Positions 1-36,015 of a stretch of 64,000 bases of DNA are shown piece after piece (position 1 is the stretch's first letter; every line of letters starts with the position of its first letter). The notes beneath the pieces are model-generated. The model saw nothing but the letters and a program-made list of their open reading frames with translations, was not told the DNA's origin and did not search any database. This DNA comes from Escherichia phage vB_Eco_F27. Made by a program: the position numbers and the translations under genes. The stretch lies in sequence record OP870146.1, one strand, 5' to 3'.

Positions 1-2275
1 ATTCTTCACCTTCTTGAAGCATACGACGAATACATTCTTTAAGAGCTTTCTGTACTGCTTTAGGGGTCGAAGATTTCTGAGTTTCTAGACCCATGATTTT
101 GAGTTTAGGCTCGGCGTAACGAGTACCTTCCATATCCCACACGTTTAATGCATAACGTTTCTTACCAGTCCAGAATCCACCAATACCTTTAGAACCGAGC
201 GGAGGACCAGCGATAGCTTCTCGGTCCATGAACATTAAGTGTTGTTTATTGTTCATGTATTCACACATTTCACGGAAACCTCTATCAATAGCAGGTTCCA
301 TACGTTCACGTGCAAACTTATCTAAGAAGTCTACCCAATGGTTAGTATCGCGGAATTTAGATTCACCGACCTTATCGATAATTTTATCGGCGGATACGTA
401 AATAGAGTCTGTATCACCATAAAGAACGAAAGCTTCACCTTCTGTACCACAAACTTCATTCAGATATTCATTAACTTTACGTTCAATCCACTGTAAAGCC
501 ATTTGACCAAATGTTGTGATTGCAGTTGCATTACGCAAATCGTAATAACGGAACCAAACGTTTCCAAGTGCACCATAAAGCGAGTTGATAAGCAATTTAC
601 GGTTAATTTGTGCAGTCATACCTGCAACTTCAGTACGTTGAGCTCTAAACAACATTTCATTAAGAGATTTAGCAGACAACTTTTTAATCTTTTCTTTAAT
701 CTCATCACTGAAGTCGAAACGATAATCAACATCTAATGGTTCGTCAACAGAAAGATTAGGATTATGCAATGCCTCTTTAATTATTTCGCCATTACGTTGA
801 GCTGCAAGCATGTAACCTTTATGTTCTTTACGTTGATTAAAGACCTTAGTGATTTCAGTTGGAACTACACCATCACGGTCTTTATAATACATCATGCCGT
901 TAGGAGAGCAACTGTACACATCTGAAGGACGTTCAGCGATTGCGTTAATATAATCATGCAGTGGAGCTACTTTAAACGTTCCTGCTATTGTTTCAGGGCT
1001 AATATTCACTTGGCGAATAATACTTGGATACAGAGATGTAAGGTCGAAACTCATTACATATTTGTATCGATTTGGAATAGGTTCCTTAACAAAAGCGCCA
1101 GGATAAGGTTGAACCGGGTGAGAACGACCTTGTGGAATCACCTTGTTCTGCTCTTTAAGGCTATTAAAAATAATAGCATCCCATGTTTTAATTGGACTGA
1201 ACACAGATTGAATCTGAATTTTAGCATAATAACCCATGTCCAAACTCAAGTTGATGAACTGACGCTTAGCATCAATTTGCAATACACGATATACGTCGAT
1301 AATGTTATAAGAAATATATCGTTGGTGATTGCTTTCACGAAGTTTAGAAATAGGACCGTCGTATTTCAGTTTACCAACGTTCAATTCAAATTCTGAAATG
1401 TAATCCAGAGAATACGACGGTTGGTTCGTGAAAGAGAACTTTTTGTAAAGGTCAATGTAATCAAGAACAGAGATACCGAACAATGTAATGATTTCACGAG
1501 AACCATACATGTTTTCGATAACTTTAACACGAGTTTTACGATGTGGTGATAAACGTTTAGCGGTAGATTCGCCAAAAATATTCTTGATTCGGTTATACAC
1601 ATATGGAATATCAAATGACTCAACGTTCCATCCAGTCAAAATGACAGGAGTTTTCTGTTGCCAGAAATTGAGATATTCCATCAATAATTCTTTTTCATTA
1701 TCAAACGGCATATAAACAATTTTGTCGATAATTTCGGATGGAACTTCATCACCACCTTGTTCTTGAAGCTTAGCCGCAATTTCGATAGACCATTCTTCTA
1801 CATTACCATATGGAGAATTCAATAGATCAAATACGTAGAACCTGTCGTCAATTGAGTCATAATGGGTGATAGCATCAATCGGATGTTTTGCTTGTGACGG
1901 CTCAGGGAACCCGTCCGGAGATGTTACTTCGATGTCGAAGTTAGCCACACGAATTTTTGTATGGTCGTATTTGATTTCATAGTTATAAGTGTCAGACAAA
2001 TACGCCAATTTGAAATCGTCCATGCCAAGTGCTTCAAGTCCGATATCTTCCATGCGTTTAATCCATTGTGAGGCATCACGCATATTAGCGAACAACTTAC
2101 GAGTACACGGCTTACCATAGATATCGAAATATTTCGTAGCCTGACTTTCTGGACAATGAGCAAACAGTGATGGTTTATATTCTACTTCACGAGTACGTTC
2201 ACGGCCATTAGAATCGATGTAACGTTCAAAAATTGAATCACCGATCTGTTCAACCGTTAAGTAAAATTCTTTCAT
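1..2275 (-). CDS. 43: DNA polymerase gp43, N-terminal ~758 codons (partial, continues past window start)
   Basis: Minus-strand translation starts MKEFYLTVEQIGDSIFER at 2275 and reads ...KIMGLETQKSSTPKAVQKALKECIRRMLQEGEE at the window edge, matching T4 gp43 as I recall it. Not in ORF track because it is truncated. Confidence 0.9.
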   Translation of the reverse strand, partial: MKEFYLTVEQIGDSIFERYIDSNGRERTREVEYKPSLFAHCPESQATKYFDIYGKPCTRKLFANMRDASQWIKRMEDIGLEALGMDDFKLAYLSDTYNYEIKYDHTKIRVANFDIEVTSPDGFPEPSQAKHPIDAITHYDSIDDRFYVFDLLNSPYGNVEEWSIEIAAKLQEQGGDEVPSEIIDKIVYMPFDNEKELLMEYLNFWQQKTPVILTGWNVESFDIPYVYNRIKNIFGESTAKRLSPHRKTRVKVIENMYGSREIITLFGISVLDYIDLYKKFSFTNQPSYSLDYISEFELNVGKLKYDGPISKLRESNHQRYISYNIIDVYRVLQIDAKRQFINLSLDMGYYAKIQIQSVFSPIKTWDAIIFNSLKEQNKVIPQGRSHPVQPYPGAFVKEPIPNRYKYVMSFDLTSLYPSIIRQVNISPETIAGTFKVAPLHDYINAIAERPSDVYSCSPNGMMYYKDRDGVVPTEITKVFNQRKEHKGYMLAAQRNGEIIKEALHNPNLSVDEPLDVDYRFDFSDEIKEKIKKLSAKSLNEMLFRAQRTEVAGMTAQINRKLLINSLYGALGNVWFRYYDLRNATAITTFGQMALQWIERKVNEYLNEVCGTEGEAFVLYGDTDSIYVSADKIIDKVGESKFRDTNHWVDFLDKFARERMEPAIDRGFREMCEYMNNKQHLMFMDREAIAGPPLGSKGIGGFWTGKKRYALNVWDMEGTRYAEPKLKIMGLETQKSSTPKAVQKALKECIRRMLQEGEE

Positions 2276-2336
2276 TTAATTTCCTTTAGACGAGTTATTG
2301 TCTTTTGTTTGTTGATGAACTTATTATACTCCAAAT

Positions 2337-2350
2337 GGGACCGAAGTCCC
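2337..2350 (-). promoter_or_regulatory. GGGACTTCGGTCCC stem-loop (UUCG tetraloop) between regA stop and gene 43 start
   Basis: Perfect inverted repeat seen in sequence; followed on the minus strand by GGAGTATAAT (-10-like). Role as terminator or gene 43 operator element is inferred. Confidence 0.45.
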
Positions 2351-2356
2351 ATTGCT

Positions 2357-2734
2357 TTAATTACCAATTGTATATTTTGCTTTCAAAGTCCAGTCATCTT
2401 TCTGTTTAAAAGAGATAACTCGGAAGTTATTAGTCAGGCCAAACAGATCTTCACGAGCAGAGTCTTCAATAACAATCAATCCCCAGTCTTCAAGCAACTG
2501 AGCAATCGAATCACGTCGTTGGTAGTCTTCACCATCGATATCAACTTGACGTCCGTCCATACGCAGCATTTCTTTAAAGTGGACGATATAGTATTTACCT
2601 TGCTTTTGGAGGATATGACAAGACTGGTAAAGGACTTTATCCTTGTTATTAGCGATGCCCATACGGGTCAAAGTCTCTTTGACTTTCAGAAAATCTTCAG
2701 GGTTCTTCAATTTAATTTCAATCATTTTTACCAT
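2357..2734 (-). CDS. regA: RegA translational repressor
   Basis: 125 aa, [56 protein letters not shown]...; position between 43 and 62. Confidence 0.9.
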
Positions 2735-3291
2735 TCCAATGCTAATTTTTTAAATTGTTTTTGTTCTTTCACATTTTTTGTAACTTCTTTGAGAAACTCA
2801 TCAGTGACCATGGCCTTCAGTTCTTTAAGGACTATTGGCAACTTGTTATTTTTTTCAAGGAGCCGCTTATACACAGTAGCATCATTCATGTTGATTGTGT
2901 AATGTTTCATCAACAGTTTGATAACTAGTAACTCTGAAGTGTCTTCGACTAGTTTAGCCCATTTAGAGAATCGTCGGCCACGTGGAATTGCCGCCATCAT
3001 ATAGTTGAAGTGCGCTTCATCACTTAATTCAGAACCGACCAAGTTCATCATGTAAACTGCGGGCATACATTCTGGAAACTGGGACAATGAGTTTTCAACC
3101 ATAAATTTTGAGTAGTCAACCTGAGCAATTGACATCGATTTCTTTTCATTAATTGCGTTAATGATTTTAAAGAATTCGTTCTCAGGTTTTTCTTTAAACA
3201 TGTCAGCACATTTTTGAATCGCATCAGCGTCGTTAGACTTCCATGCGATTTGGTGCTCGTTAAGTTGGACGTCATCATCAAATAAGTTCAT
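2728..3291 (-). CDS. 62: clamp loader small subunit gp62
   Basis: 187 aa, [32 protein letters not shown]...; overlaps regA start as in T4. Confidence 0.88.
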
Positions 3292-4330: not shown

Positions 4331-5017
4331 TTAGAAGTCGTGAGTAGAATCGGCTTCCATCGCAATAACATAACTTACTTGAGAGCTTTCAAACTTGGCT
4401 GCAACTTTATCACCAGCTCCCCACAACATTACTTTATAGTTACCTGGCTGGATTTTCATATTAGCCATATTGATTACGAAGTTAAAGTTGTTAGAACCAT
4501 CATAATCGGTAAGAGTCAAAGAATACTTAGGACGAGTTAGTCCGGAATCTTCAACTTTATTATAGCCATTGATAACAATTTTACCATCTTTATTTGTAAT
4601 AGCAATTGTATCAATCTGAAGTCCACGTGAAACTCGAAGCAATTGTTGAAGGTCTTCAGCTTTAATTTCAGTAATCACAGAAGCCACTGGGAATTGAATT
4701 GGCTTATTAGGAAAAACAATGGTGCTCTTGTCGGCAGCAGGCCAATAAACTGTGGAACGTGTATCTGCAATTTTAATATTGCCATCAGTATGCATTGAAA
4801 TTTCGGCATCATCAGACACTAGACTCAAAATGCTTAAGAAGCTATTCAAATCATAAAGTGCTACGTCAAAATCAATTTCATCAGAGATATTTGCTTCCGC
4901 ATAAGTGGTGCCATTAACTGCGCGAGTCATAATAAATTTACCTTGACTCAGCAGAATGCCAGAGTTAATAGAGGCAAAGTTTTTCAGAATAGCGATAGTA
5001 TCTTTAGACAGTTTCAT
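4331..5017 (-). CDS. 45: sliding clamp gp45
   Basis: Start moved to the ATG at 5017 (MKLSKDTIAILKNFASINSG...) preceded by AAAGGAAAT; 228 aa as in T4. Confidence 0.92.
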   Translation of the reverse strand: MKLSKDTIAILKNFASINSGILLSQGKFIMTRAVNGTTYAEANISDEIDFDVALYDLNSFLSILSLVSDDAEISMHTDGNIKIADTRSTVYWPAADKSTIVFPNKPIQFPVASVITEIKAEDLQQLLRVSRGLQIDTIAITNKDGKIVINGYNKVEDSGLTRPKYSLTLTDYDGSNNFNFVINMANMKIQPGNYKVMLWGAGDKVAAKFESSQVSYVIAMEADSTHDF

Positions 5018-27393: not shown

Positions 27394-27975
27394 TTATAAC
27401 AACCCTGTCAAATCGTTCCAATGCTTCCGGCATAATGACACATATCTATCGGTATCACCAATTTCAATTTGACTGCCATCTGTAATTGGAAGTCCGTCTT
27501 CCGTGACTCTAGCTACCATTGTGGCCTTTTTACCGCAATGACAGACACCTTTAAGTTCAACAAGCTTATCGGCAATAGCCATTAATGCTTGAGAACCTTC
27601 AAATAGATTACCTTTAAAATCTGTTCGTAGTCCATATGCCATTACCGGCACATTGTATACGTCAACAATACGACTAAGTTGATACACCTTTTCAGTAGTT
27701 AAGAACTGAGCTTCGTCAACAAATACGCAGTGAATATCCTTTTGTGCTGCAGCCCATTTATAGAATTCAAAGATATCCATGTCTTTTGTAATTATATTGG
27801 CGTCCTGGCGAATACCAATACGAGAGACTATTTCACCTTTTGAATCGCGAGTATCAATAGCCGGTTTAAGAACTAATACACCCATGCCACGTTCTTTATA
27901 GTTATGTGCGGCAGTAAGTAATGAAGCAGACTTACCAGCGTTCATAGCGGCATAGGTAAAAATTAAACTAGCCAT
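27394..27975 (-). CDS. tk: thymidine kinase
   Basis: 193 aa; P-loop YAAMNAGKS, VFVDEAQF, C-terminal Cys cluster. Confidence 0.92.
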   Translation of the reverse strand: MASLIFTYAAMNAGKSASLLTAAHNYKERGMGVLVLKPAIDTRDSKGEIVSRIGIRQDANIITKDMDIFEFYKWAAAQKDIHCVFVDEAQFLTTEKVYQLSRIVDVYNVPVMAYGLRTDFKGNLFEGSQALMAIADKLVELKGVCHCGKKATMVARVTEDGLPITDGSQIEIGDTDRYVSLCRKHWNDLTGLL

Positions 27976-28167: not shown

Positions 28168-28391
28168 TTAGGTTCACCTTCTTTAACGAAATCTGGGTAA
28201 GGGTAAAATCCTGAGTAAAACCCTTCACCTTTATGATTGCTACAACCTTTGTTCGAACAGTAACACCAATAATCAAAATCACAAGCCATTTCGTCATTGC
28301 ATAAAGCAAAAACTACAGGCCATTCGCATTTTTCGCATTTAGCACCTGTAAGAATTTTTGTTTGACTCATAGCCATGTCACCTTTAAGCAA
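28164..28391 (-). CDS. hypothetical Cys-rich protein (tk.2 position)
   Basis: 75 aa with nine Cys. Confidence 0.4.
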   Translation of the reverse strand: MLKGDMAMSQTKILTGAKCEKCEWPVVFALCNDEMACDFDYWCYCSNKGCSNHKGEGFYSGFYPYPDFVKEGEPK

Positions 28392-28594
28392 TATTCTTCT
28401 ACATGTTGTTTACGGCCTTTCTTATCAATAAAGGTATATTCAACGAATGTTCCGATGTAGTCTTTATCTACATCATGTGGACTATTAATTGGACATTTAG
28501 TACGACAAATGCGTTCCCATTGACGAATAATTACTGCCTTATTCTTTGGATCATATGGATGTGGATAATGTATATTCATAATAACGGTTCCCAA
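28367..28594 (-). CDS. hypothetical protein (tk.3 position)
   Basis: 75 aa ORF. Confidence 0.4.
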   Translation of the reverse strand: MGTVIMNIHYPHPYDPKNKAVIIRQWERICRTKCPINSPHDVDKDYIGTFVEYTFIDKKGRKQHVEEYCLKVTWL

Positions 28595-29073
28595 TCAACA
28601 ATCACAATTTCTAGTTTAGTGGAATACGTATCTAAAATCTCTTCGATGACATCCCAGTTTCCACCACCAATACCTGCACCAATTCTTGGCATATAAATTA
28701 CAGGCTTTGTTATCTTATTCTTTCCGAATTCATTTAATTCTATTATACAATTCATTAAAGCAGAGTACTCAAAATTAGGTCCCGGCTCAAACTGTGTATA
28801 AAGATTAAAGCAATAAGCTTTATGGGTCTTAAAATATTTTTCATAAACCGAATAAGTCCAGAGTTTAGACTTGTCTCCGAATTCGGTTTGAAGTTTATCG
28901 GCTTCCAGAATTTTTGGATAAGCCTTTGCTAATTGCCCTGCCACACCAGCGCCCATTGTATGAAAACAATTACACCCATGAGCAATATTATTACCTTTAG
29001 AAAACAGGGCGACAATATCGCCCTTGATATAGTTTTTAATCACTTGCTGCAAGTCCTCTATTATAAGAGTCAA
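28576..29073 (-). CDS. macro-domain-like protein (tk.4 position)
   Basis: 165 aa; HGCNCFHTMGAGVAGQL and PRIGAGIGGG resemble macro-domain nucleotide-binding motifs. Confidence 0.5.
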   Translation of the reverse strand: MTLIIEDLQQVIKNYIKGDIVALFSKGNNIAHGCNCFHTMGAGVAGQLAKAYPKILEADKLQTEFGDKSKLWTYSVYEKYFKTHKAYCFNLYTQFEPGPNFEYSALMNCIIELNEFGKNKITKPVIYMPRIGAGIGGGNWDVIEEILDTYSTKLEIVIVDWEPLL

Positions 29074-29383
29074 CTAAACGGTCCACCATAGAATTGCATG
29101 CTGCCTTATCTTTAGGTTCCGCCACCGAGCATTCTAATATTTGCCATTTTTTATAGTATCTTTTAATTAAGGTAGACGCCTTGAACCTACTAGACGCCCC
29201 ATCTTTTTCTCCGTCTTTATAAGCGTATAACAATTTTTGTGAAAAATCTACTTTACACTCTTGACTTTTACCACAATAATCAGACGCCGTTCTGTTTGTA
29301 TACTCCGTTACATCAGTATATGTAGTATTAGCAAGAGCGTTAAATGAAACCAAGCCAACTATTAAAGCCAACATTTTGGTCAT
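29036..29383 (-). CDS. small secreted protein (T4 vs position)
   Basis: 115 aa with N-terminal signal peptide MTKMLALIVGLVSFNALA. Confidence 0.45.
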   Translation of the reverse strand: MTKMLALIVGLVSFNALANTTYTDVTEYTNRTASDYCGKSQECKVDFSQKLLYAYKDGEKDGASSRFKASTLIKRYYKKWQILECSVAEPKDKAACNSMVDRLVDSYNRGLAASD

Positions 29384-29930: not shown

Positions 29931-30389
29931 CTAGATTTTAATCACTGCTTTAGAAGCTTTTCCTGGTAGTCGTTTACTGTTAATAATAGCCATTCTGCAT
30001 TGAAGAGTCTTCATTTTGAATGCTGGATTTTCGCGACAAACTGTAAGTCCTAACCAAAGATTTCCGTCAGTTATTTCTAAACGGCCTGGACGATACTCGA
30101 CACCTTCGACAAAATCTTCATCAACATCTGGACGGGCCGGCATTGATAAAAATTCTGCAACTTCTTTAACATGATTTTTTACTTTATGAAATAATTCAAA
30201 AACGTAATTCTCATCTATTTCTCTCTGGATGGCACGATCTAAGAGATGTTGAGAATACTTGATATGAAAGCCTGGTAGTCCAAGAGACTTTGCAGCATCT
30301 TTTATACTGGCATTTATTTTGCGGAACTCCGTTTCAAAGATTCGACGGAGTTTATTACGGCGGATAAAAACGTCTGAATTGATAGTCAT
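29931..30389 (-). CDS. regB: RegB site-specific endoribonuclease
   Basis: 152 aa; MTINSDVFIRRNKLRR...FHIKYSQHLLDRAIQREIDENYVFELFHK... matches T4 RegB as recalled. Confidence 0.9.
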   Translation of the reverse strand: MTINSDVFIRRNKLRRIFETEFRKINASIKDAAKSLGLPGFHIKYSQHLLDRAIQREIDENYVFELFHKVKNHVKEVAEFLSMPARPDVDEDFVEGVEYRPGRLEITDGNLWLGLTVCRENPAFKMKTLQCRMAIINSKRLPGKASKAVIKI

Positions 30390-34856: not shown

Positions 34857-35335
34857 TCGGTAATAAAACGTTCAACTTCATTATTCTTGGCCTTTATCTT
34901 GTCTTTACGTTCCTGTAAACTACTTTTAACAAGATTAATAATGATGCCTACAGTACCTCCACCAATAATACCACCAATAATACTTACAATAGTAGATGCT
35001 AATAAGATAGCGATAATATCTAGTACAGCAAAGGCACTTACTTTAGTACTAAAAAACCATACCGACGGTACAAATATAATCCATCCTGTTATCCATTGGC
35101 ACTTATTGAAAAACTTTTCAAGCTCAGCTTGAGTTGTTCGTATTACTTCATCGATAGGTTGATATCCATTAATGTATCTGTTCACAATAATACCTGCTGG
35201 CTGGTCGATTTTAAATTCTTGGCAAATATGTTTCACTAAGTAGGATGGACATCCTGTCCAATCTACCGAATAATACGAAATACCTTCGTTGCCATCGTCT
35301 ATATTAGACCAATATGTTTTGTTAATCATTACCAA
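34838..35335 (-). CDS. hypothetical membrane protein
   Basis: 165 aa with two hydrophobic helices. Confidence 0.5.
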   Translation of the reverse strand: MVMINKTYWSNIDDGNEGISYYSVDWTGCPSYLVKHICQEFKIDQPAGIIVNRYINGYQPIDEVIRTTQAELEKFFNKCQWITGWIIFVPSVWFFSTKVSAFAVLDIIAILLASTIVSIIGGIIGGGTVGIIINLVKSSLQERKDKIKAKNNEVERFITECRNLR

Positions 35336-36015
35336 CCTTCCATAGGGAATTCCAGATAAACTTGGGCATTGACACGAATTTCATTGGTAATCTTTTTAAC
35401 TCGGTCTGTATTACGAGATACACGTCCGAACCAACGCCATCCATTACTAATTGCACGAGAACCAGTGTGCCATGTTTGCCAATCAAACTGAAGAAGAGTA
35501 CGATCTGGAGCTTCCCATTTCTCTAGTTCACCTTTTTCAATTTTTTCGAGGACTTCTTTGTGCCACTGGCGATAGATAAGTTCGCCATCAGGAATCTGAC
35601 TGAACTCTGCAGTTCCTGTTGCAAAATGAGTAGGACACACATCAGCGTTAACAAGACCAAGAATATGTTCAGACAAATAGCGAGGATTGTCATAATCAGG
35701 TTGTCCTGCAGTAATAAAATGTTGTCCTGTTGGAATATCTGGGCGTGGTACGTCATCATGGTGATATCCAGGAATAGCAGGGTACCAACCAGGCATCAAC
35801 ATGTGGACTCGTGAATCAAATACTACATCCGAGTCTTTCCAATCGTCAGGGAGATTTTGAATAAAGCTACGAGTAATTGGGCCGCCATTATCAAAAGCAA
35901 AATTCAAATCGCAGTTAAAGAACATAGGCTCGTTTTTAATCTGGTCGTTTTTAATCGCATGAGCAAAACCACCTACTGCACGAGCTTGACTATTAAACAC
36001 TTTAGAACTATTCAT
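35329..36015 (-). CDS. hypothetical protein
   Basis: 228 aa ORF. Confidence 0.55.
   Translation of the reverse strand: MNSSKVFNSQARAVGGFAHAIKNDQIKNEPMFFNCDLNFAFDNGGPITRSFIQNLPDDWKDSDVVFDSRVHMLMPGWYPAIPGYHHDDVPRPDIPTGQHFITAGQPDYDNPRYLSEHILGLVNADVCPTHFATGTAEFSQIPDGELIYRQWHKEVLEKIEKGELEKWEAPDRTLLQFDWQTWHTGSRAISNGWRWFGRVSRNTDRVKKITNEIRVNAQVYLEFPMEGW

What the first reader, a model, noticed from the sequence alone, without database searches (positions are those of the whole stretch)
28576..29073. Macro-domain-like protein in the tk-vs early gene block
The 165-aa protein has Gly-rich motifs (HGCNCFHTMGAGVAGQ, PRIGAGIGGG) typical of macro domains, which bind or hydrolyse ADP-ribose. T4-like phages ADP-ribosylate host proteins, and some host defences use ADP-ribose or NAD-derived signals. 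A phage macro domain could reverse or intercept such modifications.
Basis: inference. Interest (0 to 1): 0.5.

Follow-up and report, generated by a model that had tools for sequence, protein, structure and literature searches.

The report
Phage T4 Tk.4/AdfM macrodomain orthologue

Summary

The true start is most likely the GTG at 29043 (155 aa), not the TTG at 29073 (165 aa).

The window comes from a Mosigvirus (T4-like) phage, 99% identical to phage mogra, where this CDS is already annotated "macro domain protein". The protein is 84% identical over its full length to reference T4 Tk.4 and sits in the same tk-tk.1-3-tk.4-vs-vs.1-regB order. T4 Tk.4 has long been annotated "contains A1pp phosphatase motif". 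A November 2025 preprint showed that deleting it sensitises T4 to DarTG2 and named it AdfM.

The best explanation is an early-expressed ADP-ribosyl-thymidine DNA glycohydrolase that reverses DarT2 damage.

One refinement comes from this work. The family has an invariant Gln (261/261) where DarG and TARG1 have the catalytic Lys, as in SCO6735 and BT1257. It also lacks DarG's C-terminal domain. So it works like DarG but is not a DarG family member, and it is a different branch from the Lys-type PhiKZ "AdfM".

Novelty: already known. In passing, I found a conserved GC-rich hairpin inside the first 40 nt of the CDS.

The parts
28576..29043 (-). adfM / tk.4 orthologue CDS: GTG start, TGA stop, 155 aa, single macrodomain
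   Evidence: ORF. CDS limits as annotated in phage mogra and T4. Homologues start at this residue. 84% identical to T4 NP_049723 over 155/155 aa. Pfam Macro. AF2 pLDDT 95.9.
29044..29073 (-).
   Evidence: The TTG is GTA in the L002 allele. No homologue carries this extension. The annotated CDS is 468 nt.
29054..29058 (-). GAGGA Shine-Dalgarno sequence, 10 nt upstream of the GTG start
   Evidence: Sequence read directly. GAGGA is also present in the T4-like allele.
28939..28980 (-). Loop 1 / ADP-ribose-binding motif HGCNCFHTMGAGVA (residues 22-35). It includes the near-invariant H22 and N25 and the GxG turn. N25 aligns with the DarG active-site Asn.
   Evidence: Translation. Family conservation: N25 259/261, G33 260/261, A35 260/261, H22 253/261. 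Alignment to the DarG TVN motif. DarG N22 / PhiKZ N23 are active-site residues (PMC13309987).
28792..28806 (-). NLYTQ strand end (residues 80-84). Q84 occupies the position of the catalytic Lys of TARG1 (K84) and DarG (K80).
   Evidence: Translation. Profile alignment NlYTQ / YLITK. MAFFT alignment with DarG FPTK. Q84 261/261, Y82 261/261, N80 260/261. SCO6735 has an essential Gln85 at this position (PMC9411070).
28654..28689 (-). Loop 2 / diphosphate-binding Gly-rich motif PRIGAGIGGGNW (residues 119-130). G126 lies where TARG1 has Asp125.
   Evidence: Translation. Profile alignment to TARG1 PRIGCGLDRLQW. Conservation: P119 258, G122 259, G124 259, W130 253 of 261.
29006..29024 (-). 8-bp GC-rich hairpin (AGGGCGAT-ATT-GTCGCCCT, about -13 kcal/mol) at codons 7-13 of the CDS, 12 nt after the vs stop, followed by GUUUUCU. 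Candidate intrinsic terminator or attenuator; role unproven.
   Evidence: Terminator-like scan hit. Annotated as 'terminator' in the 99%-identical phage NBG1. Conservation and compensatory changes. MFE p<=0.003 against synonymous shuffles.
29036..29383 (-). vs (valyl-tRNA synthetase modifier), upstream gene. Its TAA stop (29036..29038) overlaps the adfM start region by 8 nt.
   Evidence: ORF, annotation in mogra, sequence.
28367..28579 (-). tk.3-like gene (DUF7202). Its ATG overlaps the adfM TGA stop (ATGA), which suggests translational coupling.
   Evidence: ORF, mogra CDS limits, Pfam DUF7202 E 2e-38, sequence.
27394..27975 (-). tk (thymidine kinase), the downstream anchor of the block
   Evidence: Pfam TK E 7e-57.
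29931..30389 (-). regB endoribonuclease, the upstream anchor of the block
   Evidence: Pfam REGB_T4 E 2e-69.

Best explanation
The gene is the Mosigvirus orthologue of phage T4 tk.4, recently named adfM (anti-DarT factor, macrodomain). It encodes a stand-alone 155-aa macrodomain of the TARG1/DarG/Poa1p ('ALC1-like') class. It is made as part of the translationally coupled regB-vs.1-vs-tk.4-tk.3...tk gene string. The host DarTG2 system responds to infection by releasing DarT2, which ADP-ribosylates thymidines in single-stranded DNA and blocks phage replication. This protein most likely binds the ADP-ribose through its two Gly-rich loops and hydrolyses the thymidine-ribose N-glycosidic bond, restoring replicable DNA. 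Catalysis probably follows the lysine-independent route proposed for Streptomyces SCO6735: an invariant Gln (Q84) positions the distal ribose and a water is activated. This differs from the Lys-based chemistry of DarG and TARG1. Shown here: the fold, the class, orthology and the active-site make-up. Shown in the literature for T4: the anti-DarTG2 phenotype. Inferred: the same phenotype in this phage, enzymatic removal of ADP-ribose from DNA, and the Gln-type mechanism.
Against: No biochemistry exists for T4 Tk.4 or for this protein; the preprint infers hydrolysis from homology. The catalytic Lys of DarG/TARG1 and the Asp of TARG1 are both absent. The SCO6735-type loop lysines are not evident in the FEPGPNFEY loop. 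The Gln mechanism rests on molecular dynamics and mutagenesis of one distant relative at about 21% identity. The DarTG2 phenotype was measured in T4 under special conditions (M9 glucose, 30 C), not in a Mosigvirus. The closest solved relatives by sequence are BT1257 (function unknown) and Poa1p (a phosphatase), not DarG.
Confidence: 0.68

Rival explanations
1. It processes small ADP-ribose derivatives rather than repairing DNA. Candidates are ADP-ribose-1''-phosphate (Poa1p-like 'A1pp phosphatase', the historical annotation), O-acetyl-ADP-ribose, or an ADP-ribose-derived immune signal. It would clear by-products of RNA repair or intercept NAD-derived defence signals.
Against: The only genetic phenotype known for the orthologue is specific to DarTG2, a DNA-modifying system. 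The 'phosphatase' label is a homology-transfer name and no activity has been measured for the phage protein. T4-type RNA repair (Pnk plus Rnl1) leaves no 2'-phosphate and so makes no Appr1p (established knowledge, not tested here).
Confidence: 0.12
2. It is a non-catalytic antitoxin mimic. The macrodomain binds and blocks DarT2 directly, or shields the ADP-ribosylated sites, without hydrolysing them.
For: Catalytically dead SCO6735 Q85A, DarG K80A and TARG1 K84A all still inhibit DarT in vitro (PMC9411070). Other phage anti-DarT factors (AdfA, and AdfB of ICP1) act by binding DarT. The canonical catalytic Lys is missing.
Against: Pocket residues (N25, Q84, Y82, the GxG loops) are invariant across 261 diverse members, which is typical of an enzyme that acts on a universal ligand. 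A binder of a rapidly evolving toxin surface would be expected to vary. The DarT-binding C-terminal domain of DarG is absent: 155 aa, and only profile positions 4-146 of the 338-position NCBIfam DarG model are matched (likewise 4-145 of 329 in PADLOC).
Confidence: 0.08
3. It has a broader or different macromolecular substrate. It could remove ADP-ribose from RNA or protein, for example host mRNA/tRNA-directed ARTs such as CmdT-like toxins, or reset the phage's own Alt/ModA/ModB marks. DarTG2 would then be only one of several targets.
For: SCO6735 and TARG1 act on both protein and DNA substrates. T-even phages face an mRNA ADP-ribosylating defence, CmdTAC (PMC11618068). Two diverged alleles (about 84% and 58% identical to this protein) circulate among T4-like phages, which is compatible with diversifying targets.
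Against: No data exist for any such substrate. Alt/Mod enzymes modify arginine, which macrodomains are not known to reverse (established knowledge). The transposon screens on other defence systems in the preprint did not report tk.4 (Discussion passage).
Confidence: 0.08

Closest known systems
Phage T4 Tk.4 = AdfM (NP_049723; bioRxiv 10.1101/2025.11.20.689424)
   Same: 84% identical over all 155 residues. Same length and same position between vs and tk.3. Same motifs, including N25, Q84 and both Gly-rich loops.
   Different: 25 substitutions, for example G127 here against K in T4. GTG instead of ATG start. The host phage is a Mosigvirus, not a Tequatrovirus. The phenotype was not tested in this phage.
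Streptomyces coelicolor SCO6735 (PDB 5E3B)
   Same: ALC1-like macrodomain with Gln at the position of the DarG/TARG1 catalytic Lys. It is stand-alone and not encoded with DarT, yet it removes DarT-made ADP-ribose from thymidine and rescues cells from DarT. Structural match: Foldseek E 4e-6, TM about 0.7.
   Different: Only about 21% identity. SCO6735 has a longer mobile loop with Lys89/Lys94 that aids DNA binding, and the phage loop (FEPGPNFEY) has no lysines. It is a bacterial DNA-damage-regulon protein, not a phage counter-defence.
Bacteroides thetaiotaomicron BT1257 (PDB 2FG1/2AFC)
   Different: Function unknown. It lacks the HGCNC motif exactly (it reads HICND) and is a chromosomal bacterial gene.
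DarG / DarG2 antitoxin macrodomain (PDB 5M31, 5M3E, 5M3I, 7OMU)
   Different: DarG has a catalytic Lys in FPTK where this family has an invariant Gln. DarG is about 340 aa with a C-terminal DarT-binding domain and is encoded next to darT. Model scores are far below membership: NCBIfam 26 bits against a cut-off of 250, PADLOC 28 bits.
Chimallivirus AdfM (PhiKZ gp104; Cell Rep 2026, PMC13309987)
   Same: A phage-encoded stand-alone macrodomain of about 160 aa that protects against DarTG2. Same name and same proposed reaction, shown biochemically for PhiKZ.
   Different: A different branch. PhiKZ gp104 is DarG-type (N23/K78; E 1e-24 to Mtb DarG; PADLOC DarG 133 bits). It shares only a 23-residue local match with this protein. 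It is imported into the phage nucleus and expressed late.
Yeast Poa1p (PDB 6LFQ-6LFU) and human TARG1/OARD1 (PDB 4J5Q-S)
   Different: Poa1p is an ADP-ribose-1''-phosphate phosphatase of tRNA-splicing metabolism. TARG1 uses a Lys84/Asp125 dyad, and both residues are replaced here by Gln84 and Gly126.

Membership tests
Macro domain superfamily (Pfam PF01661) | Sequence match to the family model above the curated threshold | tested here: met
   24.8 bits against a gathering score of 22; residues 32-146 of the 165-aa ORF cover positions 2-117 of the 118-position model.
Macro domain superfamily (Pfam PF01661) | Three-layer alpha/beta/alpha fold with a mixed central sheet | tested here: met
Macro domain superfamily (Pfam PF01661) | Gly-rich ADP-ribose/diphosphate-binding loops (GxG after strand 2; G-x-G-G loop before the last helix) | tested here: met
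   MGAGVA and IGAGIGGG are present and near-invariant in the family.
Macro domain superfamily (Pfam PF01661) | Binds ADP-ribose | not testable with these tools
   Needs ITC, thermal shift or a co-crystal.
ALC1-like / TARG1-DarG-Poa1p class of macrodomains | Closest structural neighbours are members of this class, separated from MacroD-, viral- and PARG-type macrodomains | tested here: met
T4 Tk.4 / AdfM orthologous group | Full-length high identity to T4 Tk.4 | tested here: met
   130/155 identical, no gaps, E 2e-103.
T4 Tk.4 / AdfM orthologous group | Conserved position between vs and tk.3 in the regB-tk block | tested here: met
   The same holds in EcS1, PYps35T and a Jiaodavirus.
T4 Tk.4 / AdfM orthologous group | Required for growth on DarTG2-expressing hosts | not testable with these tools
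   Shown for T4 only.
DarG (type II antitoxin, DNA ADP-ribosylglycohydrolase) | Catalytic lysine (TaqDarG K80) in the FPTK motif | tested here: not met
   Gln84 occupies this position (NLYTQ) and is invariant in 261/261 members.
DarG (type II antitoxin, DNA ADP-ribosylglycohydrolase) | C-terminal DarT-binding domain; total length about 330-350 aa | tested here: not met
   155 aa. Only positions 4-146 of the 338-position NCBIfam model are matched, at 26.1 bits against a cut-off of 250. PADLOC DarG gives 28.4 bits.
DarG (type II antitoxin, DNA ADP-ribosylglycohydrolase) | Encoded next to a darT toxin gene | tested here: not met
   The neighbours are vs and a DUF7202 gene, and no ART-like gene lies in the block.
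SCO6735-type (Gln-type) ALC1-like macrodomain | Gln at the position of DarG K80 / TARG1 K84, with no Asp at TARG1 D125 | tested here: met
   Q84 and G126. The equivalence of SCO6735 Gln85 with K80/K84 is taken from PMC9411070.
SCO6735-type (Gln-type) ALC1-like macrodomain | Extended, Lys-bearing mobile loop after the Gln that clamps DNA | tested here: inconclusive
   The loop after Q84 is FEPGPNFEY with no Lys. I had no residue-level structural alignment with 5E3B, only Foldseek TM about 0.7.
SCO6735-type (Gln-type) ALC1-like macrodomain | Hydrolyses thymidine-linked ADP-ribose on ssDNA | not testable with these tools
   Needs a gel-shift de-ADP-ribosylation assay.
Poa1p-type ADP-ribose-1''-phosphate phosphatase | Residues probed in the Poa1p structures (His23, Ser30, Phe152) | tested here: inconclusive
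   His23 aligns with the near-invariant H22. Ser30 aligns with the variable T29. Phe152 was not aligned. The Poa1p paper is not in the library.

The most novel reading that the evidence does not exclude
The Tk.4-type AdfM may not be a captured DarG2 antitoxin. It may instead be an independent recruitment of a stand-alone Gln-type (BT1257/SCO6735-like) macrodomain. If so, it would use lysine-independent chemistry and could have a wider substrate range (RNA, protein or small ADP-ribose derivatives) than DarT2-modified DNA. In addition, its expression, and that of the downstream tk.3-tk genes, may be gated by a conserved GC-rich hairpin/terminator embedded in codons 7-13 of its own reading frame.
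Probability: 0.3. Interest if true: 0.4.

Novelty: already known. Interest (0 to 1): 0.2.

Why it matters
DarTG systems are common anti-phage toxin-antitoxin modules. T-even phages now appear to carry a layered set of counter-measures: AdfA, the NADAR enzyme AdfN against guanine-ADPr, and this macrodomain against thymidine-ADPr. Recognising the gene in a new genome helps predict host range on DarTG2-bearing strains, which is relevant to phage therapy cocktails built from Mosigvirus and Tequatrovirus phages. This analysis adds a useful distinction for annotation and for biochemistry. Two unrelated branches of macrodomain now share the name AdfM: Lys-type in chimalliviruses and Gln-type in T4-like phages. 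The T4-like branch should be tested for a lysine-independent mechanism. None of this changes the verdict that the finding itself is an already described gene.

Tried and rejected
(1) TTG start at 29073, giving a 165-aa protein. Rejected in favour of the GTG at 29043.

(2) Membership in the DarG family, as an 'orphan DarG2'. Rejected: there is no catalytic Lys, no C-terminal domain and no darT neighbour, and the scores are far below the cut-offs.

(3) Same family as PhiKZ AdfM. Rejected: only a 23-aa local match, and PhiKZ gp104 is DarG-type.

(4) I first took GenBank record 'T4_ev240' as T4 and obtained 58% identity. The T4 reference gives 84%, so T4_ev240 carries a different tk.4 allele. The alignment therefore compares with that allele.

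(5) A dedicated sigma-70 promoter for the gene. The scan found fewer promoter-like sites than the shuffles (12 against 15.3) and none convincingly placed upstream. T4 middle and late promoter types were not scanned.

(6) Bacterial homologues as clues to a cellular origin. The two 'bacterial' MAG hits I looked up sit on short, phage-like contigs with a T4-type RNA ligase and helicase, or an SLT gene, so they say nothing about a DarT-linked ancestor.

(7) A text search for 'AdfM' was swamped by the journal abbreviation adfm. The Poa1p structure paper is not in the library.

(8) Model coordinates are not exposed to scripts. I therefore could not measure distances between Q84, N25 and a docked ADP-ribose, and the residue equivalences rest on profile and MAFFT alignments plus the published structure-based alignment.

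Full report
**Observation.**

The minus strand carries an open reading frame at 28576..29073, 165 codons from a TTG.

The first ten codons are very unlikely to be translated:
- They lie inside the 3' end of the upstream gene vs.
- The TTG is not conserved; it reads GTA in another tk.4 allele.
- 54 of 72 homologues begin exactly at the residue encoded by the GTG at 29043.
- GenBank annotators of the 99%-identical phage mogra and of T4 call a 468-nt CDS.
- A GAGGA Shine-Dalgarno sequence lies 10 nt upstream of that GTG.

I therefore take the gene to be 28576..29043, 155 aa. Its GTG start region overlaps the vs stop by 8 nt. Its TGA stop overlaps the ATG of the next gene (ATGA). This is the usual T4-type translational coupling.

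**What the window is.**

The 3.1 kb around the gene is 99.3% identical to Escherichia phage mogra, a Mosigvirus of the Tevenvirinae. It is 95-99% identical to about 150 other phage records.

The neighbours are:
- thymidine kinase (Pfam TK, E 7e-57);
- three small tk.1-3-type genes;
- vs;
- an SLT-like vs.1;
- RegB (Pfam REGB_T4, E 2e-69).

So the location 'tk-vs early gene block' is correct.

**Is it a macrodomain?**

Yes, on every test.
- Pfam Macro scores 24.8 bits against a gathering score of 22.
- phmmer finds solved macrodomains directly: BT1257 at 5e-10, plus Poa1p, SCO6735, TARG1 and DarG.
- A 72-sequence family profile improves these to 1e-18 through 8e-12.
- An AlphaFold2 model built on that alignment has mean pLDDT 95.9 and pTM 0.91.
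- Foldseek against the PDB returns TARG1, Poa1p, BT1257, DarG and SCO6735.

The protein therefore belongs to the TARG1/DarG/Poa1p ('ALC1-like') class.

**Already annotated, and already given a function.**

Records of near-identical phages call this CDS 'macro domain protein', 'macro domain-containing protein', 'phosphatase' or 'T4-like phage protein with Macro domain, Poa1p_like family'. The T4 reference genome annotates tk.4 as 'phosphatase; contains A1pp phosphatase motif'. The window protein is 84% identical to T4 Tk.4 over all 155 residues with no gaps.

A caution for the record. I first compared with GenBank 'T4_ev240', which carries a different allele that is only 58% identical. Both alleles circulate in T4-like phages.

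A preprint of November 2025 (bioRxiv 10.1101/2025.11.20.689424) reports the following:
- In a T4 transposon library grown on a DarTG2-expressing host, tk.4 was the single significant hit.
- A clean tk.4 deletion sensitises T4 to DarTG2.
- The predicted structure matches the M. tuberculosis DarG macrodomain.
- The authors name the gene adfM and propose enzymatic removal of ADP-ribose from DNA, without biochemistry.

This fills a gap left by an earlier paper, which showed that T4 lacking both adfA and adfN is still DarTG2-resistant and predicted a further factor (PMC11825919).

**Mechanism.**

DarT2 ADP-ribosylates thymidine in single-stranded DNA and blocks replication. DarG2's macrodomain reverses this. 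All ALC1-like macrodomains that have been tested (DarG, human TARG1, Streptomyces SCO6735) remove DarT-made ADP-ribose from thymidine (PMC9411070).

I therefore commit to the reading that this protein is an ADP-ribosyl-thymidine DNA glycohydrolase, made from the regB-tk transcription unit, that repairs phage DNA during infection of DarTG2 hosts. My confidence is about 0.68. The fold, the class and the orthology are shown. The phenotype is shown only for the T4 orthologue. The enzymology is inferred.

**A refinement: the active site is not DarG-like.**

In the profile-to-PDB alignment the family motif N-L-Y-T-Q aligns with TARG1 Y-L-I-T-K. This puts Gln84 on the catalytic Lys84 and Gly126 on Asp125. 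MAFFT puts the same Gln on the Lys of DarG's FPTK motif. BT1257 also has Gln there.

Conservation was counted across 261 family members. These included 150 representatives of 50%-identity clusters, from a search that found 1,299 clusters at E<=1e-30:

| Residue | Members conserved |
|---|---|
| Gln84 | 261/261 |
| Tyr82 | 261/261 |
| Asp49 | 261/261 |
| Asn80 | 260/261 |
| Asn25 | 259/261 |
| His22 | 253/261 |

SCO6735 is the one characterised enzyme with this arrangement. Its Gln85 is structurally equivalent to DarG K80 and TARG1 K84. Q85A and Q85E are inactive, and a water-mediated, lysine-independent mechanism was proposed for it. It still protects cells from DarT.

The other phage protein called AdfM, PhiKZ gp104, is a true DarG-type macrodomain:
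- Its active-site residues are N23 and K78.
- It matches M. tuberculosis DarG at E 1e-24.
- It scores 133 bits on PADLOC DarG and 138 bits on NCBIfam DarG.

The window protein scores 28 and 26 bits on those two models, against a cut-off of 250 for NCBIfam. It shares only a 23-residue local match with gp104. It also lacks DarG's C-terminal DarT-binding domain and has no darT neighbour.

So it works like DarG but is not a DarG family member. The two 'AdfM' proteins are separate recruitments from different branches of one macrodomain class.

**Rivals.**

- *The historical 'A1pp phosphatase' reading, or processing of other small ADP-ribose derivatives.* It is kept alive by the closeness to Poa1p, by the shared H(S/G)CNC motif whose His is the residue mutated in the Poa1p H23A structure, and by one distant homologue that sits beside a T4-type RNA ligase. 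It has no experimental support for the phage protein and does not explain the DarTG2 phenotype (0.12).
- *A non-catalytic DarT2 blocker.* This is conceivable because dead mutants of SCO6735, DarG and TARG1 still inhibit DarT in vitro. The invariance of the ligand-pocket residues argues for catalysis (0.08).
- *Broader nucleic-acid or protein de-ADP-ribosylation.* This is possible but untested (0.08).

**Novelty and score.**

Novelty: already known. Interest: 0.2.

The most novel reading still open is that the T4-like AdfM is an independently recruited Gln-type enzyme with lysine-independent chemistry, perhaps with wider substrates, and that its expression is gated by an internal hairpin (see below). 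I give this a probability of about 0.3 and modest interest.

**Side observation.**

A terminator-like hairpin lies inside codons 7-13 of the CDS, 12 nt after the vs stop. It is at 29024..29006 on the minus strand: AGGGCGAT-ATT-GTCGCCCT followed by GUUUUCU, about -13 kcal/mol. The annotators of phage NBG1 marked it as a terminator and, probably for that reason, truncated the macro CDS to 126 aa.

The amino-acid motif K-G-D-I-V-A-L forces part of the palindrome: 13-20% of synonymous recodings keep 8 pairs if wobble pairs are allowed. The observed stability, however, is reached by <=0.3% of recodings.

All 12 distinct G-D-(I/L)-V-A sequences, spanning about 54-99% protein identity, use GGC/GTC/GCC. 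Those codons have usage of only 0.25, 0.14 and 0.15 in these genes.

Compensatory changes occur:
- AAG...CTG changes to AAA...TTG in the EcS1 lineage.
- GAT/GTC changes to GAT/ATC in L042.
- In the Vequintavirus rV5, GGA pairs with a Ser TCT codon and GAT with an Ile ATC codon.

Lineages with Lys, Glu or Gln at position 12 lack the hairpin. This looks like selection on a nucleic-acid structure in part of the family. Its role (attenuator, mRNA end or other) is untested.

Noticed in passing
window 29006..29024 (- strand), inside codons 7-13 of the macro CDS: This is an 8-bp GC-rich hairpin plus a U-rich tail, 12 nt after the vs stop. It is conserved in T4, Mosigvirus, EcS1-type, L042 and rV5 homologues, with compensatory changes. 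All 12 G-D-(I/L)-V-A sequences use the rare codons GGC/GTC/GCC. The MFE is reached by <=0.3% of synonymous recodings. The hairpin is absent where residue 12 is Lys, Glu or Gln. It is a candidate attenuator/terminator controlling tk.4-tk expression; its function is unknown.
   Followed up: partly
L087 (phage vB_EcoM_NBG1) 1477..1935, equivalent to window 28576..29034: This 99%-identical genome annotates the hairpin as a 'terminator'. It starts the macro CDS downstream of it, giving a 126-aa protein that lacks the first strand and part of loop 1. This is probably an annotation artefact.
   Followed up: no
L002 (T4_ev240) 2501..2980 versus L088 (T4 reference) 4423..4890: Two diverged tk.4 alleles circulate among T4-like phages. 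The window protein is 84% identical to reference T4 Tk.4 but only 58% identical to the allele in the record named T4_ev240. tblastn shows bands of 151 records at 95-99%, 225 at 80-90% and many below 60%. This suggests allele exchange or diversification at this counter-defence locus.
   Followed up: partly
family alignment, residue D49 (window 28897..28899, - strand): Asp49, in the helix after loop 1 (motif E-A-D-K), is invariant in 261/261 family members, as strictly as Gln84. None of the papers I read on DarG, TARG1 or SCO6735 discusses it. It may be a family-specific catalytic or structural residue.
   Followed up: no
L090 (MAG contig labelled Cetobacterium) 69..3159: A distant Tk.4-type macrodomain sits in a phage-like string: DUF4326, a T4-type RNA ligase 1, an unknown gene, the macrodomain, then a Dda/PIF1-like helicase. 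This hints that some family members are linked to RNA repair rather than to the tk-vs block.
   Followed up: no
window about 35078..35533 (- strand), mapped from mogra 108808..109263: A Nudix hydrolase, the T4 NudE/e.1 counterpart, lies 6 kb away. Nudix enzymes of this type hydrolyse free ADP-ribose, so it could dispose of the product released by the macrodomain. This is pure speculation and was not examined.
   Followed up: no
window 29036..29383 (- strand), vs: The upstream, translationally coupled gene vs was the most strongly depleted T4 gene in minimal medium in the same transposon study. The DarTG2 phenotype of tk.4 was also measured in minimal medium at 30 C. Polar effects between the two overlapping genes may be worth excluding.
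   Followed up: no
window 28403..28696 and 28933..29091 (+ strand): Two antisense ORFs of 97 and 52 codons overlap the macro gene. No annotation in related phages and no family match support them, and I treated them as chance ORFs.
   Followed up: no
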